Of a stretch of 64,000 bases of DNA, positions 2,184-56,697 are shown piece after piece (within the stretch, counting starts at the first letter, position 1; each line of letters starts with the position of its first letter). Source of the stretch: an uncultured Legionella sp. (GTDB lineage: Bacteria > Pseudomonadota > Gammaproteobacteria > Legionellales > Legionellaceae); the NCBI GenBank assembly GCA_902168255.1, contig CABHON010000004.1:34361-98360 (forward strand), given 5' to 3'. The translations under genes were made by a program, and so were the position numbers. The notes beneath the pieces were generated by a model that saw nothing but the letters and a program-made list of their open reading frames with translations, had not been told where the DNA came from and did no database searches.

Positions 2184-3065
2184 TTATAAAGCTTGAATTT
2201 TTTTTGCCACCGCTACTAATAATGAGGAAACTTTTGGGGCTGCTTTTTTACCCATGTCAACCACCGTATCATGTGAGTGAATATTAGGACCCACACCAGT
2301 AGCATAATTAGTAATAGTAGCAATAACGGCTGTTTTTAAACCACAATGATTCGCCACGATAATTTCTGGTACGGTGGACATACCAATGACATCAGCCCCC
2401 CAATGTTGGAACATTCGAATCTCTGCAGCAGTTTCATAACTTGGGCCTAAAACTGAAATATATACGCCTTCATGCAAGGTAATATGTAAATCCCGGGCTG
2501 TTTGACGAATTGCTTGATTAAGTTTATGGTTGTAAGCTTCATCAAGCGCAGGAAATCGTGGGCCAAAATCATCGTCGTTAGGGCCTGCAAGCGGATTACC
2601 TGGTTGAAAATTGATATGGTCTTGAATAAGAACCAATTGGCCCGGGTGAATTTTTTCGCGCAAAGAACCCGATACGTTAGTAGCAATATAATATTCACAC
2701 CCTAAGAGTTTTAAGGTGCGAATCATTGTTTTAATAGGAACGTAGGATTGAGTCTCATAAGTATGAGAACGGCCTTTTAGACAAGCAACAGGTGTTTCAT
2801 TTAAATAGCCTAAACAAAGTGAGCCGGAATGACCTTTCACACTAAGAGAAGGAAATCCAGGCAAGTCAGTATAAGCAATTTCAGTTACATCGGTGAGTTG
2901 TTCAGTAAGGCTATCTAAACCAGAACTTAATAAAATTCCTAAACGTGGAACAAAATTTGGTCGCGCTTTTTGAATAAATTCGGCGGCTTGATGGGCATGT
3001 TGTGTCAAGATATAATTCTCCGTTACTCTTCGCAGTGAAGCTTTCAGTTTCGTTGCAAGCTGCAT
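2184..3065 (-). CDS. purine nucleoside phosphorylase (trimeric PNP/MTAP family)
   Basis: 293 aa with GHSGSLCLGYL...GRSHTYE and GMSTVPE motifs. It ends 9 nt before the gshA start, so it is probably the first gene of a PNP-gshA-gshB operon. The ATG at 3065 lies inside a repeat unit. An alternative TTG at 3008 is preceded by GGAG. Confidence 0.85.
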   Translation of the reverse strand: MQLATKLKASLRRVTENYILTQHAHQAAEFIQKARPNFVPRLGILLSSGLDSLTEQLTDVTEIAYTDLPGFPSLSVKGHSGSLCLGYLNETPVACLKGRSHTYETQSYVPIKTMIRTLKLLGCEYYIATNVSGSLREKIHPGQLVLIQDHINFQPGNPLAGPNDDDFGPRFPALDEAYNHKLNQAIRQTARDLHITLHEGVYISVLGPSYETAAEIRMFQHWGADVIGMSTVPEIIVANHCGLKTAVIATITNYATGVGPNIHSHDTVVDMGKKAAPKVSSLLVAVAKKIQAL

Positions 3066-3400
3066 CGCCTTCGGTCATGTACTAGATGTACATTCCCTCG
3101 GCTGCTTCGCTTGCGCCTCACTGAAAACTCCATTGCTGTGAGTAATACAATATAAAAATATTGCACTGAAGCTTTCAGTTTCGTTGCAAGCTGCATCGCC
3201 TTCGGTCATGTACTTAGATGTACATTCCCTCGGCTGCTTCGCTTGCGCCTCACTGAAAACTCCATTGCTGTGAGTAATACAATATAAAAATATTGCACTG
3301 AAGCTTTCAGTTTCGTTGTTGGCAGTCGTTTTCGGGGAGGTACAAACCTACCCTACGTATGCTTCCTCGAAAATTCTATTGCAGTGCGTAATCAAATATA
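3032..3400. repeat. tandem array (2 near-identical units plus 1 degenerate unit) of a ~131-132 bp palindromic element, family B
   Basis: Units start at 3032, 3163 and 3295 (GCA(G/C)TGAAGCTTTCAGTTTCGTTGCAAGCTGCATCGCCTTCGGTCATGTAC...). Each unit is an imperfect hairpin whose left arm pairs with ...GCTTGCGCCTCACTGAAAACTCCATTGCTGTGAGTA. The third unit has diverged after about 25 nt. Confidence 0.85.
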
Positions 3401-25197: not shown

Positions 25198-25221
25198 TTT
25201 ATACTGTGAACACAGTATAAA
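25198..25221 (+). terminator. candidate hairpin terminator after the CorB-like gene
   Basis: TTTATACTGTG-AA-CACAGTATAAA is a perfect 11-bp stem 23 nt after the stop, followed by ACTCTTTTC. Confidence 0.4.
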
Positions 25222-25224
25222 ACT

Positions 25225-25356
25225 CTTTTCACTTGAGTTTTGGTTTTGTTGCCTGTTGCATCGACTTCGGTCATGTTGAAGCGACTGCCAGTCGCTCCCG
25301 ATTCACGACTTGTCCGCTTGCTTGAAACATAACTGAAATCAATTGCCTTGAGTAAA
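25225..25356. repeat. palindromic element, family B (solo intergenic copy)
   Basis: CACTTGAGTTTTGGTTTTGTTGCCTGTTGCATCGACTTCGGTCATGTT...CCGCTTGCTTGAAACATAACTGAAATCAATTGCCTTGAGTA aligns with the 3032-3400 units and with the 55775-55905 copy. Confidence 0.7.
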
Positions 25357-32611: not shown

Positions 32612-32771
32612 TGTTTACTAATTCAACCCCCTCGATTTGTTATTCTATAACTTTGTAAGCTAAGTCATCATTGCTTTAATCTTTGACTTAACCGCAACAG
32701 AAAGAAAACAATCAATGACTCTGCCACGGCGTTATTCCCACGAGGCATTTTTACGTAGAGAAATAAGAAGC

Positions 32772-32830
32772 TAAAACTAAAGAGCACGATTAAGCTTGGC
32801 ATTATCACGAAGCAACAACGAAGCGTGCTT
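32772..32830. repeat. half copy of palindromic element, family C
   Basis: AAAACTAAAGAGCACGATTAAGCTTGGCATTATCACGAAGCAACAACGAAGCGTGCTTC matches one arm plus flank of the 45779-45870 element (reverse complement), with a few substitutions. Confidence 0.6.
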
Positions 32831-32836
32831 CTCCTT

Positions 32837-32948: not shown

Positions 32949-33136
32949 GTTCTTACGGAGAACGTCATTGCGAGGAGTTACAGATATTGTGTAGCGGAGC
33001 AATATCTGTAACGACGTGGCAATCCAGATATGGATGCTTTTTTAAATATCGAAACTGGATTGCTTCGTCATGTTTTATCTGTTTCGCTACGCTGCACTGA
33101 TAAAACATTTCTCGCAATGACGTTCTCCGTAAGAAC
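32949..33136. repeat. MITE-like nested-palindrome element, family A (copy 2, longer terminal inverted repeats)
   Basis: GTTCTTACGGAGAACGTCATTGCGAGGAG ... CTCGCAATGACGTTCTCCGTAAGAAC forms 26-nt perfect terminal inverted repeats (the GAG continuing the left arm has no partner). Internal hairpins are CAGATATTG/CAATATCTG, GGCAATCCAG/CTGGATTGC and GTTTTATC/GATAAAAC. Confidence 0.8.
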
Positions 33137-45778: not shown

Positions 45779-45846
45779 GAGTTTGGCATTATTACGAAGC
45801 AACAACGAAGCATGCTTCGTTGTTGCTTCGTAATAATGCCAAACTC
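45779..45846. repeat. perfect 68-bp palindrome, family C (possible bidirectional terminator)
   Basis: GAGTTTGGCATTATTACGAAGCAACAACGAAGCATG|CATGCTTCGTTGTTGCTTCGTAATAATGCCAAACTC, located between convergent genes. Confidence 0.85.
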
Positions 45847-45954
45847 AATCGTACTCTTTAGTTTTGGCTTGCTTATTTATCCTCGCAACAATGTATCCTC
45901 AATCACATCTCTGTGAAACATATGCTGTGAATATAATTAGATGCGCAGCATATG

Positions 45955-54637: not shown

Positions 54638-56485
54638 ATGAAACAACCTACTATTTTAGGCATTAATCGCACGCAAGATGCGAGCATTTCGCTATTTAAA
54701 GGGGGCAACCATGTTATTTCTATCCAAAAAGAGCGATTGACGCGAAAGCGGCATCATTGGGGAAAGTTAGGTGATAGCGCGCTTTATTTGTCCCGATTAG
54801 AAGAATTAAAACAACCTATTGATCTTATTGTTGAAGGTTATTCTTGTGACAAAGAGCTTAATAACATTGAGTTATATCATAAAGAGCTTGAAGAAAGTTT
54901 TACATGGGCTAATGAAACAAAAATTTTACCAATCTCGCATCATCTATCTCATGCATATAGCGCCTATTATCCCTCGGGCTTTTCAAATGCGGTTGTAATG
55001 ATCTGTGATTCAGTGGGTAGTCAAGGTAAACATTTTACTGAAAAGTATGATATACAAATAGAAAATTTAGAAAAATTTGAAGTAGCCTCTTTTTATTATA
55101 TAGAAGGAAAGGAAATTATCTGTTTACATAAACAATTATGGGATGGTAATAAAAAAGCCCCTCGAGGATTAGGGCAGTTCTATTTTCTTTTAACACAATG
55201 TATTTTTCCAGGAGAAGGTAAAGAAGGTAAGGTGATGGGGTTGGCTAAATGGGGCAATGCTGCGCGACTTAACTTGCCTCCGCTGGAAGTAAACCATGGT
55301 GACGTTTTCATCCCACTGGAATGGCAAGCATTGTTTAATGATCCAGAAAAATATAGTTTTTATAAAAATCGAAAAGGGTATTTTCATGATTGTGCTGATT
55401 TAGCTGCTGCCGGACAAAAAGCATTTGAAGAAGCATTACTAACATTAACTCAATGGTTAGTTTCCCAAACAAATTCATCCAATCTATGTTATGCAGGAGG
55501 AACGGCGTTAAATTGTTCGGCTAATGGCATATTATTAAAACAAGCACCTTTTAAGAAGATATTTATTCCCCCTGCACCGCATGACGGTGGTACTTCATTA
55601 GGATGTGCACTTTATGGGCTAATTAGTTATTACGGAATTATGCCTAATTTTAATTGGCAATCAGATTATTTGGGACCAAATAAACCGCTTTTTCTGTCAC
55701 GAGAAATACATTCACAGCAATTAAATTTGAGACAAGATAAAAAAAACGAATGTGGGCATGAAGAAAATGTAAAGAATATATACTCACAGCAATTGAGATT
55801 TCGGTGCGGCGCGAGCGAAGCAGGCGAAGAAGTGTATACTGAATACATGACTGAAGCCGATGCAGCTCGCAACAAAACCGAAATCTCAAGTGCGCAGAGT
55901 ATATTTATAGAAAAACCAGAGAATATTTATGAAGAGGTATCGAATAGTTTGCTAAGAGGTGAAATTATGGCACTATTTTTAGATAATAGTGAATTTGGCC
56001 CTCGTGCTCTAGGACATCGCAGTATTATAGCGGATCCTCGATATAGAGTAACAACTGATTGGATTAATCGGTATATAAAACATAGAGAATGGTTTAGGCC
56101 TATTGCTCCTTTTGTTTTAGAAGAAGATCTAGAGGAAATTTTTGAAACGAATCAAACATTGCCTTATATGCTTTATGCTGTTTCTGTCAAATTACATTAC
56201 AGACAAAAACTATCTGCGGCTGTTCATATTGATGGTACGGCACGTGTACAGAGTGTTTCACAAAAGATTAACCCTTTTTTGCATCGATTATTATCTATTT
56301 ACAAAGAAAAAATAGGAATGGGAGTCTTATTAAATACCTCATTTAATCGTCAAGGTGAACCCATTATTGAAACATTTGATGAGGCTATAGAGTGCTTTTT
56401 AAGTACGCCTTTGCATGCGCTGCTTGTACCTCCTTATATTATAAGAAAAAAAAATCCTCCGATTAATCCTCTTTTATTATGTTAA
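54638..56485 (+). CDS. NodU/CmcH-family carbamoyltransferase carrying an in-frame repeat insertion
   Basis: ILGINRTQDASISLF...QKERLTRKRHHWG, SHHLSHAYSAY, EFGPRALGHRSI and NTSFNRQGEPI are present. About 44 extra residues (NIYSQQLRFRCGASEAGEEVYTEYMTEADAARNKTEISSAQSIF) are encoded by the family B element. Confidence 0.9.
   Translation: MKQPTILGINRTQDASISLFKGGNHVISIQKERLTRKRHHWGKLGDSALYLSRLEELKQPIDLIVEGYSCDKELNNIELYHKELEESFTWANETKILPISHHLSHAYSAYYPSGFSNAVVMICDSVGSQGKHFTEKYDIQIENLEKFEVASFYYIEGKEIICLHKQLWDGNKKAPRGLGQFYFLLTQCIFPGEGKEGKVMGLAKWGNAARLNLPPLEVNHGDVFIPLEWQALFNDPEKYSFYKNRKGYFHDCADLAAAGQKAFEEALLTLTQWLVSQTNSSNLCYAGGTALNCSANGILLKQAPFKKIFIPPAPHDGGTSLGCALYGLISYYGIMPNFNWQSDYLGPNKPLFLSREIHSQQLNLRQDKKNECGHEENVKNIYSQQLRFRCGASEAGEEVYTEYMTEADAARNKTEISSAQSIFIEKPENIYEEVSNSLLRGEIMALFLDNSEFGPRALGHRSIIADPRYRVTTDWINRYIKHREWFRPIAPFVLEEDLEEIFETNQTLPYMLYAVSVKLHYRQKLSAAVHIDGTARVQSVSQKINPFLHRLLSIYKEKIGMGVLLNTSFNRQGEPIIETFDEAIECFLSTPLHALLVPPYIIRKKNPPINPLLLC
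55775..55905. repeat. family B palindromic element (~131 bp) inserted in-frame in the carbamoyltransferase gene
   Basis: The terminal inverted repeats are TACTCACAGCAATTGAGATTTCGG and CCGAAATCTCAAGTGCGCAGAGTA. The reverse complement aligns along its whole length with the 3163-3294 unit (GTTGC(G/A)AGCTGCATCG(G/C)CTTC(A/G)GTCATGTA ... CTGCTTCGCT(C/T)GCGCC ... ATTGCTGTGAGTA). Confidence 0.8.
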
Positions 56486-56697
56486 AGAAAATATCGTTTT
56501 CTTTTTAAAGAGATTATTTTATAGGATGGCCGGTATTCTTTACTCTATAGGATGATTGCCGGCCTTTTCCATTGAGAATGTGATGGCGTTATGAATTTAT
56601 CTTGCCCTCACATAAGAGATAACTTTTATTCCTGCCTCAGGTTATGTATAATTGAATTAGTCCAAGTCAACATCGGGACTCATAAGGAATAACTATT

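What the first reader, a model, noticed from the sequence alone, without database searches (positions are those of the whole stretch)
55775..55905. Palindromic repeat (family B) inserted in-frame inside an otherwise intact carbamoyltransferase gene
Seen in sequence: a ~131-nt segment with terminal inverted repeats (TACTCACAGCAATTGAGATTTCGG / CCGAAATCTCAAGTGCGCAGAGTA) lies inside the 615-aa NodU/CmcH-type ORF. It aligns over its whole length, in reverse orientation, with the intergenic repeat units at 3032-3294 and 25225-25356. It adds about 44 residues (NIYSQQLRFRCGASEAGEEVYTEYMTEADAARNKTEISSAQSIF) between two conserved blocks without breaking the frame. The opposite strand is also open (track ORFs 55650-55889 and 55666-55875). 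Established knowledge: Rickettsia palindromic elements behave this way. I am not aware of the equivalent being described for this element family.
Basis: partly seen in the sequence, partly recalled or inferred. Interest (0 to 1): 0.7.

Follow-up and report, generated by a model that had tools for sequence, protein, structure and literature searches.

The report
Mobile hairpin repeat inside enzyme gene
A 121-base palindromic mobile repeat (a MITE) has landed in frame in the flexible linker of a carbamoyltransferase gene of an uncultured gammaproteobacterium, which is the Rickettsia-style "selfish DNA inside genes" behaviour, seen here in a repeat family I could not find described.

Summary
Window 55781-55901 is a 121-nt whole-length hairpin (RNA fold z = -9.2). 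It lies inside an intact 615-aa carbamoyltransferase ORF and matches, as a reverse complement, the intergenic units at 3023-3280 and 25220-25346 (blastn E about 1e-27).

Two syntenic orthologues and about 70 more distant homologues lack the segment, so it is lineage-specific.

I found 20 copies in five related genomes. The core TACTC...GAGTA is 121 nt in 14 of 19 aligned copies and is usually flanked by TA on both sides. A core plus one TA is 123 nt, or 41 codons.

Three more copies sit in frame inside genes of MAG SKS3.bin72: RibBA, an S1/P1 nuclease, and a conserved membrane protein whose homologues lack exactly 41 residues. Two other copies sit on the TA of a TAG stop codon.

The window insert is 59 codons, not about 44. 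The 18 extra codons carry the left-end remnant of a second, decayed copy.

AlphaFold2 keeps both enzyme domains above pLDDT 90, with the insert as a low-confidence linker excursion.

Verdict: this is an apparently undescribed family of a well-known kind, a bacterial MITE with a TA target-site duplication and RPE-, Correia- or ERIC-like in-frame fusions. It is not a new mechanism. No mobilising transposase was found.

The parts
54638..56485 (+). Host gene: NodU/CmcH/TobZ-type carbamoyltransferase, 615 aa, intact ORF.
   Evidence: ORF list. Pfam PF02543 covers residues 94-325 and PF16861 covers 437-604. PDB relatives are GdmN and TobZ. All columns invariant across the 74-sequence alignment are retained. 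The AF2 model has mean pLDDT 89.1.
55781..55901 (+). Full-length MITE core, 121 nt (TACTCACAG...GCGCAGAGTA), read in element frame +0 as YSQQLRFRCGASEAGEEVYTEYMTEADAARNKTEISSAQS.
   Evidence: nhmmer E 3e-36. Copy alignment. Hairpin z = -9.2. 92.9% identical to the L031 copy.
55779..55780 (.). TA on the left flank of the core; putative target-site duplication, left copy.
   Evidence: TA flanks the core on both sides in most copies. Removing core plus one TA (123 nt) keeps the ORF open.
55902..55903 (.). TA on the right flank of the core; putative target-site duplication, right copy.
   Evidence: Empty-site reconstructions in L031, L009, L016 and L012.
55781..55804 (+).
   Evidence: Pairs with 55878-55901 in the minimum-free-energy structure. 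Covariation supports these helices.
55878..55901 (+). Right terminal inverted repeat.
55705..55724 (+). Left-end remnant of a second, internally deleted family member (AATACATTCACAGCAATTAA, the 'CATTC' end variant). Same orientation and reading frame as the full copy (IHSQQL versus IYSQQL).
   Evidence: 19 of 20 identical to the end of the L029 variant copy, with 0 of 1000 shuffles reaching that score. An earlier, weaker test gave 1 of 300.
55698..55778 (+). Additional lineage-specific linker sequence (residues about 355-380, REIHSQQLNLRQDKKNECGHEENVKN). It is 18 codons longer than the orthologous linker. Probably old linker plus the decayed copy; boundaries are approximate.
   Evidence: Protein alignments A1 and A4. 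Long-gap alignment to the L029 copy. pLDDT 53-61.
3023..3149 (-). Intergenic family copy u1, the first unit of a tandem array.
   Evidence: nhmmer E 2.5e-39; blastn.
3152..3280 (-). Intergenic family copy u2. Period to u1 is 131 nt. Its right end is replaced by a spacer.
   Evidence: nhmmer E 2.4e-38; the repeat finder D2/D3.
3284..3393 (-). Divergent third unit of the array. It shares the ends but has a different centre.
   Evidence: nhmmer E 3.4e-8; alignment A2.
25220..25353 (-). Intergenic family copy (134 nt, with an enlarged centre), lying between two + strand ORFs.
   Evidence: nhmmer E 1.8e-27.

Best explanation
The segment is a non-autonomous transposable element (a MITE). It has a 121-nt core that is a near-perfect hairpin with ends TACTC...GAGTA, and it inserts at a TA dinucleotide that it duplicates. 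Core plus one TA is 123 nt, or 41 codons, and several reading frames of the element are free of stop codons. An insertion in a tolerant part of a gene therefore leaves the frame intact.

In the window, one full copy lies in the surface linker between the Kae1-like N-domain and the YrdC-like C-domain of a carbamoyltransferase. Just upstream is the in-frame remnant of an older copy. Together they add 59 residues that are predicted to be a flexible excursion. The enzyme probably still works, and the insert is most likely a tolerated passenger rather than an adaptation.

Shown here:
- membership of a repeat family;
- absence of the segment from orthologues;
- the 121-nt core with TA flanks;
- the exact 41-codon gain in another gene;
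- restoration of a TAG stop codon at two other sites when the element is removed;
- conservation of the hairpin by compensatory changes;
- confident folding of both enzyme domains.

Inferred, not shown:
- mobilisation in trans by a DDE transposase that targets TA (IS630/Tc1-like);
- expression and activity of the protein carrying the insert.
For: Family membership and significance.

Spread: 20 copies in five genomes. These are the window genome, the L030 genome, the L031-33 genome, MAG SKS3.bin72 and the MAG 'Legionella sp. clean6628'.

Uniform size and flanks: the core is 121 nt in 14 of 19 aligned copies, with TA on both sides in most.

Lineage-specific: the syntenic orthologues P0002 and P0003, and the homologues P0004-P0009 and others, all have linkers of 19-23 aa at this point.

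Support for a 123-nt gain at a TA:
- Homologues of the L012 membrane protein lack exactly 41 residues.
- In L016, removing the element rebuilds ATG-ATA-AAA..., which encodes MIKIAGRSVFLALLLVLFSYPAFS, a normal signal peptide. It also restores an ATGA stop/start overlap with the upstream gene.
- In L031 and L009, removal restores a TAG stop exactly where orthologues end.
- In L013 RibBA, the insert sits in a loop that is 13 aa long in M. tuberculosis RibBA, PDB 4I14.

Hairpin: 95.2% of cells are paired. 16 of 40 pairs show compensatory double changes, against 8.5 +/- 1.6 in shuffles (0 of 500 as high) and 2-6 in slid controls.

Tolerance in the protein: AF2 gives pLDDT above 90 for both domains and below 50 for residues 370-418. 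All columns invariant in the 74-sequence alignment are kept. The older remnant is also in frame, so the gene stayed open after an earlier insertion.

Recency: the gene copy is 92.9% identical to the L031 copy, while third codon positions of the host genes are only 51% identical.
Against: - No autonomous IS with matching ends was found in any sequence held, so the transposase family is a guess.
- TA is also part of the terminal palindrome (TATACTC...GAGTATA). A duplication therefore cannot be read directly from any single copy. It rests on the empty-site reconstructions and on frame arithmetic.
- No truly empty allele of the window site, from the same species, was available.
- There are no expression or activity data. 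A stem of about -58 kcal/mol inside the mRNA and a 59-residue linker insert could impair the enzyme.
- The compensatory changes and the strand asymmetry of folding are not required by a simple model in which a transposase only binds the terminal repeats.
Confidence: 0.85

Rival explanations
1. The element is a REP/BIME-like or IS200/IS605-type palindrome-associated element. It would be mobilised as a single-stranded DNA hairpin by a Y1/HUH transposase (RAYT/TnpA), not by a DDE transposase at TA.
For: The whole element is a hairpin kept by compensatory changes. One strand folds better in 16 of 17 copies, by about 6 kcal/mol on average, as expected if one single strand is the active form. A tandem array exists at 3023-3393.
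Against: The TA/TA flanks and the exact 123-nt (41-codon) gain fit a 2-bp duplication, whereas HUH transposition makes none. The element is 121 nt, not the 20-40 nt of REPs. It carries true terminal inverted repeats rather than subterminal hairpins. No RAYT was seen, although little sequence was searched.
Confidence: 0.08
2. The insertion has inactivated the carbamoyltransferase. The ORF is open only because the event is recent and 123 nt happens to be a multiple of three, so the gene is a young pseudogene.
For: The copy looks young: 92.9% identical to a copy in another genome, with a near-perfect stem. There are no expression data. The linker has grown from about 20 to about 79 residues.
Against: The 615-aa ORF is intact and keeps every column that is invariant in the 74-sequence alignment. 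Both domains are modelled confidently. A second, much older and internally deleted copy is also in frame, which implies selection for an open frame over a long time after a first insertion. RPE-bearing Rickettsia guanylate kinase is active (cited in PMC2229807).
Confidence: 0.12
3. The repeat is a structured RNA gene or regulatory RNA motif (an sRNA, an RNA stability element or an RNase target). Its copies are kept for an RNA function, and the intragenic copy regulates the carbamoyltransferase mRNA.
For: A strongly conserved stem with covariation and G-U pairs that favour one strand. In Coxiella burnetii, MITEs give rise to sRNAs (PMC5896051).
Against: There is no Rfam match, even at E <= 1. 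Orientation relative to neighbouring genes is unbiased, about 8 sense to 10 antisense. No promoter-like or terminator-like signal exceeds chance. The uniform length, the TA flanks and the dispersed sites are the signature of transposition.
Confidence: 0.05
4. The segment is an ancestral linker or domain lost in other lineages, or it is a metagenome assembly artefact.
For: None beyond the fact that the contig comes from a metagenome assembly.
Against: About 70 homologues and two syntenic orthologues lack it. It matches intergenic DNA repeats at the nucleotide level. The flanking gene halves are collinear and in frame. The same 615-aa protein is recorded on two contigs.
Confidence: 0.02

Closest known systems
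Rickettsia palindromic elements (RPE; Ogata et al. 2000 and 2002, as summarised in PMC2229807 and PMC10969869)
   Same: A palindromic repeat of about 105-150 bp that folds as one long stem-loop. It occurs both between genes and fused in frame inside conserved housekeeping genes, at places compatible with the protein fold. Here that applies to 4 of 20 copies.
   Different: The host is an uncultured gammaproteobacterial lineage, not Rickettsia. No sequence relationship was tested or is expected. This family is read in at least three frame and orientation combinations (+0, +2, -0) and does not encode one conserved peptide. A TA duplication is supported here, whereas target-site duplication is listed as uncertain for RPE (Table 1 of PMC2229807). 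Only 20 copies were examined, far fewer than in the RPE studies.
Correia/NEMIS elements of Neisseria (107-bp form) and RUP of Streptococcus pneumoniae
   Same: MITEs of about 100-150 bp with terminal inverted repeats, 5'-TA-3' at the termini and a TA target-site duplication. In Correia the filled site minus the empty site is the element length minus 2. Transcripts form a long stem-loop. The 107-bp Correia form has open frames and is found fused to ORFs. RUP is attributed to an IS630-family transposase (PMC2229807).
   Different: The terminal sequences appear unrelated, though this was judged from memory and not tested. No IHF site or promoter was detected here. No partner IS was identified. 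Here the stem extends over the whole element and shows compensatory changes.
QMITE1 and QMITE2 of Coxiella burnetii (PMC5896051)
   Same: MITEs in a bacterium that may be related to the window's host; the best named MutS match, at about 61% identity, is a Coxiella sp.. They overlap ORFs, and one QMITE2 supplies the C-terminal 33 residues of EnhC, much as the L031 and L009 copies here supply C-terminal residues and the stop codon.
   Different: QMITE1 is 300-400 bp with direct repeats of 2-4 bp. QMITE2 is 150-190 bp with direct repeats of 7-11 bp and a GTAG REP core that IS1111 targets. This element is 121 nt with TA flanks and no such core. The sequences were not compared because the QMITE sequences were not at hand.
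ERIC/IRU and other enterobacterial small mobile sequences found intragenically (Delihas 2007, cited in PMC2229807)
   Same: Small elements with terminal inverted repeats and TA termini that carry open frames and occur fused in frame with host ORFs.
   Different: Different hosts and sequences. ERIC has only a 7-bp contiguous terminal repeat (Table 1 of PMC2229807).

Membership tests
Bacterial MITE (non-autonomous element with terminal inverted repeats) | Small size (about 50-400 bp) with no capacity to encode a transposase. | tested here: met
   The core is 121 nt in 14 of 19 copies, with a range of 112-134 nt.
Bacterial MITE (non-autonomous element with terminal inverted repeats) | Terminal inverted repeats. 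| tested here: met
   The ends TACTCACAGCAATT... and ...AAGTGCGAAGAGTA are conserved in all full copies and pair in the fold.
Bacterial MITE (non-autonomous element with terminal inverted repeats) | Target-site duplication (here TA). | tested here: met
   TA lies on both sides in most copies. Homologues of the L012 protein lack exactly 41 codons, which equals 121 + 2 nt. Removing core plus one TA restores TAG stops in L031 and L009 and a normal start and signal peptide in L016. Caveat: TA also extends the palindrome, and no same-species empty allele was available.
Bacterial MITE (non-autonomous element with terminal inverted repeats) | Multiple dispersed copies at non-homologous sites. | tested here: met
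   20 copies at 18 distinct sites in five genomes.
Bacterial MITE (non-autonomous element with terminal inverted repeats) | A cognate autonomous IS with the same terminal repeats that supplies the transposase. | tested here: inconclusive
   A search for the terminal repeat (up to 2 mismatches) over the window and the 16 loci that carry family copies found no pair of ends enclosing a transposase gene. Only about 0.25 Mb of these genomes was available.
Rickettsia palindromic elements (RPE) | Sequence membership in one of the RPE families, and occurrence in Rickettsia. | not tested
   No RPE sequences were at hand. The host is gammaproteobacterial (MutS). I therefore file this as RPE-like in behaviour, not as an RPE.
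Rickettsia palindromic elements (RPE) | A palindromic element of about 100-150 bp inserted in frame in conserved protein genes, at positions compatible with the fold. | tested here: met
   Carbamoyltransferase interdomain linker. RibBA loop. N-terminus of an S1/P1 nuclease. Loop of a membrane protein.
REP/BIME elements mobilised by RAYT | A short (about 20-40 nt) imperfect palindrome with a conserved GTAG-type head, an associated RAYT gene and no target-site duplication. | tested here: not met
   The element is 121 nt, has terminal repeats running to its ends, and gains 123 nt on insertion. No conserved GTAG head appears in alignment A5. Presence of a RAYT gene could not be assessed.
QMITE1/QMITE2 (Coxiella burnetii) | A size of 300-400 bp with direct repeats of 2-4 bp, or 150-190 bp with direct repeats of 7-11 bp and a GTAG REP core. 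| tested here: not met
   The sizes and flanks differ (against PMC5896051). Direct sequence comparison was not possible.
NodU/CmcH/TobZ carbamoyltransferase (host gene) | A Carbam_trans_N (Kae1-like) domain plus a Carbam_trans_C (YrdC-like) domain. | tested here: met
   PF02543 E 9.7e-27 and PF16861 E 6.1e-60. GdmN E 9e-64 and TobZ E 5e-53.

The most novel reading that the evidence does not exclude
This uncultured gammaproteobacterial clade has its own RPE-like system. It is a MITE whose insertion length (121 + 2 = 123 nt) is a multiple of three and which has several stop-free frames, and it repeatedly becomes part of proteins. Of the 20 copies, 4 are internal in-frame inserts and at least 3 (L031, L009, L017) end a host ORF by supplying its C-terminal residues and stop codon; two of those three sit on the TA of the original TAG stop. 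The stem is actively maintained by compensatory change on one preferred strand, which would point to a single-stranded (hairpin) transposition or repair intermediate rather than plain recognition of the terminal repeats. The near-identity of the window copy to the copy on the stop codon of the orthologous gene in a sister genome would then reflect a local hop or recent horizontal spread.
Probability: 0.3. Interest if true: 0.5.

Novelty: new member of a known kind. Interest (0 to 1): 0.38.

Why it matters
The finding adds a second clear, independent case of palindromic selfish DNA being written into conserved enzymes, outside the Rickettsia alphaproteobacteria. The arithmetic is unusually clean: 121 + TA = 41 codons. 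Four different proteins carry the insert at linkers, loops or termini.

It gives a tractable natural experiment on how much extra disordered sequence an interdomain linker or a loop can absorb. It also gives a concrete repeat model for annotating these MAGs. Gene callers and homology tools will otherwise report odd domain spacing, C-terminal extensions or split hits.

It does not reveal a new mechanism or a new function.

Tried and rejected
- Metagenome scan: I searched metagenome contigs with ACATGACYGAARNCGATGCA. All 44 loci were chance matches, and none had an nhmmer hit better than E 1e-4 or extending beyond the seed region.
- Known RNA families: Rfam at gathering thresholds over the window, and at E <= 1 over the element, found nothing.
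- Plasmids: blastn 'distant' against the plasmid collection found no match.
- Literature: searches for a description of the family, including the string ACTCACAGCAAT, returned only unrelated hits. The Ogata 2002 paper (PMC186582) is not held.
- Autonomous partner: the search for an element with the same ends in the held sequence was negative.
- Decayed copy downstream of the window gene: I asked whether the window keeps a decayed copy downstream of the carbamoyltransferase stop codon, as L031 does and L030 partly does. The alignment gave no detectable similarity in the window; only L030 keeps a right-end remnant.
- RNA role: I looked for an orientation bias relative to transcription. There is none, about 8 sense to 10 antisense.
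- Promoter and terminator scans were at chance level.
- Possible overlap with the purine nucleoside phosphorylase ORF: the ATG at 3065 lies inside copy u1. A TTG start with a GGAG Shine-Dalgarno sequence just outside the element is more plausible, so I do not count u1 as coding.
- Two of my coordinates in the empty-site script were off by 2 nt (L005, L012). The L005 reconstruction failed and is not used.
Full report
**1. The observation**

The sequence at 55775-55905 is as described. It lies inside ORF 54638-56485 (+, 615 aa), which carries Pfam Carbam_trans_N and Carbam_trans_C. Its nearest solved relatives are GdmN, the novobiocin carbamoyltransferase and TobZ.

blastn of 55740-55940 against the window finds the two units at 3024-3144 and 3151-3276 on the opposite strand. 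Identity is 80% and 79% over 121 and 130 nt (E 3.7e-27 and 1.3e-26). The copy at 25216-25276 gives E 9e-10. The repeat finder and an nhmmer profile agree, and they add a divergent third unit at 3284-3393.

The element folds as one hairpin from end to end. As RNA it gives -58.3 kcal/mol against -29.1 +/- 3.2 for shuffles (z = -9.2). As DNA, z = -6.4.

**2. The segment is lineage-specific**

The 615-aa protein has close relatives of 555-561 aa. Two of them, P0003 on L030 and P0002 on L031-L033, sit in the same gene order: polysaccharide deacetylase, carbamoyltransferase, (extra gene), histidine kinase, MutS, and so on. They are therefore orthologues.

In alignments of 9, 11 and 74 sequences, every homologue has a linker of about 19-23 aa between DYLGP and the conserved (E/Q)KP motif. 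The window protein has about 79 aa there.

**3. Anatomy of the family**

A genome-contig scan with the internal 20-mer found full-length copies in MAG SKS3.bin72 (JAJZTL01, 13 copies) and in a MAG labelled Legionella sp. clean6628 (one copy). The other hits were chance matches. The orthologous loci carry one copy each.

Aligned, the copies share the ends TACTCACAGCAATT... and ...AAGTGCGAAGAGTA. The core is 121 nt in 14 of 19 copies, and most have TA immediately on both sides.

The stem is conserved by covariation. 95.2% of cells are paired. 16 of 40 pairs carry compensatory double changes, against 8.5 +/- 1.6 after shuffling (0 of 500 as high) and 2-6 when the partners are slid.

The strand that is sense in the carbamoyltransferase folds better in 16 of 17 copies. 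Even so, copies show no orientation bias relative to neighbouring genes. There is no Rfam match, and no promoter or terminator signal above chance.

**4. Evidence for a TA duplication and a 41-codon gain**

- L012: homologues of this conserved membrane protein (38-48% identity) lack exactly 41 residues where the element lies.
- L016: the element lies in reverse orientation directly after ATG-ATA of an S1/P1 nuclease gene. Removing core plus one TA rebuilds MIKIAGRSVFLALLLVLFSYPAFS, a normal signal peptide. The ATG overlaps the upstream gene's TGA as ATGA.
- L031: the copy sits on the end of the orthologous carbamoyltransferase gene and supplies its last five residues (YTHSN) and the stop. Removal restores ...PLLTS-TAG, the length at which the orthologues end.
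- L009: removal likewise restores a TAG stop.
- L013: the element lies in a RibBA loop between EHxxLxK and LVRxHS, which is 13 aa long in M. tuberculosis RibBA (4I14). Removing 123 nt keeps the frame.

Three frame and orientation combinations are used: +0 in the window, +2 in L012 and L013, and -0 in L016. The subfamily present in the window and its sisters is natively stop-free in frame +0.

Among the 20 copies, 4 are internal in-frame inserts. Three more (L031, L009, L017) end an ORF within the element.

**5. The window insert is composite**

The 18 codons beyond the 41 lie upstream, at about 55698-55778. They contain AATACATTCACAGCAATTAA (55705-55724). This is 19 of 20 identical to the left end of a variant copy in L029 that has CATTC...GAATG termini (0 of 1000 shuffles). 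It has the same orientation and frame as the full copy.

I read this as the internally deleted remnant of an earlier insertion or of a dimer. Tandem units do occur, at 3023-3393. Remnants of neighbouring copies are also seen next to the L017 copy and downstream of the gene in L030. That the remnant is still in frame argues that the gene stayed under selection after the first hit.

**6. Consequence for the protein**

An AlphaFold2 model built from a 74-sequence alignment has mean pLDDT 89.1 and pTM 0.87. Both domains score above 90. Residues 370-418 score below 50, and residues 350-369 score about 53-61. The insert falls between the last N-domain and the first C-domain segments that align to GdmN and TobZ.

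Every column that is invariant across the 74 sequences is retained. I infer a tolerated, flexible linker excursion. Expression and activity remain untested.

**7. Age and origin**

The window copy is 92.9% identical to the L031 copy. The host genes, by contrast, are 75% identical in nucleotides and only 51% identical at third codon positions. The insertion is absent from both sister genomes.

The subfamily has therefore been active, or has been exchanged, more recently than these genomes diverged. [quoted passage not shown]

The host belongs to an uncultured gammaproteobacterial clade. MutS relatives at 73-89% identity are all unnamed. Named matches reach only about 60-62% identity and are almost all generic (MAG: Gammaproteobacteria bacterium); the only genus-level one in that band is Coxiella sp. 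DG_40, at 61%.

**8. Comparison with known systems**

The features match the bacterial MITE class reviewed by Delihas (PMC2229807) and Minnick (PMC10969869): under 200 bp, terminal inverted repeats, TA termini with a duplication, a long stem-loop, and open frames found fused to host ORFs.

The behaviour is that of Rickettsia RPEs and of the 107-bp Correia form. TA targeting recalls RUP and IS630. Coxiella QMITEs differ in size and in their direct repeats (PMC5896051).

I found no description of this particular family. I could not compare sequences with RPE, QMITE or ISfinder entries, and no autonomous partner was found. A large census reports that roughly 10% of bacterial MITEs are intragenic (PMC11602168). 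The 4 of 20 seen here is higher, but the sample is small.

**9. Verdict**

This is an apparently undescribed MITE family of a well-known kind. It is a clean RPE-like example in a gammaproteobacterial lineage, but not a new mechanism.

Interest is 0.38. Confidence that it is a transposon-type in-frame insertion is 0.85. Confidence in the specific IS630-like transposase is no better than about 0.5.

Noticed in passing
window 45779-45846; related 32768-32831 and 45807-45870: A perfect 68-nt palindrome (GAGTTTGGCATTATTACGAAGCAACAACGAAGCA | its reverse complement) has a 64-nt relative, 91% complementary, about 13 kb away. This is a second palindromic repeat family, unrelated to the first. Both copies are intergenic: no spanning ORF of 100 aa or more.
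   Followed up: partly
window 18390-18453 and 33012-33075: A third repeat family: a 64-nt unit with the inverted ends CGACGTGGCAATCCAG...CTGGATTGCTTCGTCAT and a variable centre (75% identity). Both copies are intergenic and flanked by GCGGAGCAAT-like sequence.
   Followed up: no
window 3023-3393: Family copies form a head-to-tail array with a 131-nt period. Units 2 and 3 have lost the right terminus, which is replaced by the spacer TATTTTTATATTGTAT. Unit 3 has a different centre. The array therefore grew by tandem duplication, not by three separate insertions.
   Followed up: partly
window 2184-3065 (-): The longest ORF of a purine nucleoside phosphorylase-like gene starts at an ATG inside repeat unit u1. 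A TTG about 45 nt downstream, preceded by GGAG, is a more plausible start, so an automatic annotation may add about 15 element-derived residues.
   Followed up: partly
L031 11671-11792 (also L032, L033): In a sister genome, a copy 92.9% identical to the window's gene copy sits on the TA of the TAG stop codon of the orthologous carbamoyltransferase. It gives the protein a 5-residue tail (YTHSN) and a new TGA stop inside the element.
   Followed up: yes
L030 2255-2277: Downstream of the orthologous gene in the other sister genome, only a right-end remnant (CCACTGTGCGAAGAGTATA) is left. It lies just before a conserved promoter-like block (AACTTTTATTCC...GGTTAAGGTTAGGTATAAT) that all three genomes share. 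This suggests an old insertion at this site that has decayed.
   Followed up: partly
L029 4616-4650: One SKS3.bin72 copy has variant termini (CATTC...GAATG) and a triplicated AACAGCAATT inside its left terminal repeat. This is the same end variant as the remnant inside the window gene.
   Followed up: partly
L017 about 765-786: The left flank of this copy (AAGTACGAAGAGTATGTA) looks like the right end of another family member. It is another case of adjacent or nested insertion with decay.
   Followed up: no
window 56486-56697, compared with L030 2338-3555 and L031 11841-13085: Both sister genomes have an extra gene of about 405-414 aa with no Pfam hit between the carbamoyltransferase and the histidine kinase. 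The window has only a 212-nt spacer there.
   Followed up: no
L001 13791-16190 (MutS; about window 58428-60827): MutS in this clade is about 800 aa and lacks the C-terminal PF27441 domain found in most of the gammaproteobacterial homologues of about 850 aa that were listed.
   Followed up: no
window 61540-61664: An inverted repeat with 33-nt arms (91% complementary) around a 59-nt G+C-rich spacer, in an AT-rich intergenic stretch. It is unrelated to the family studied.
   Followed up: no
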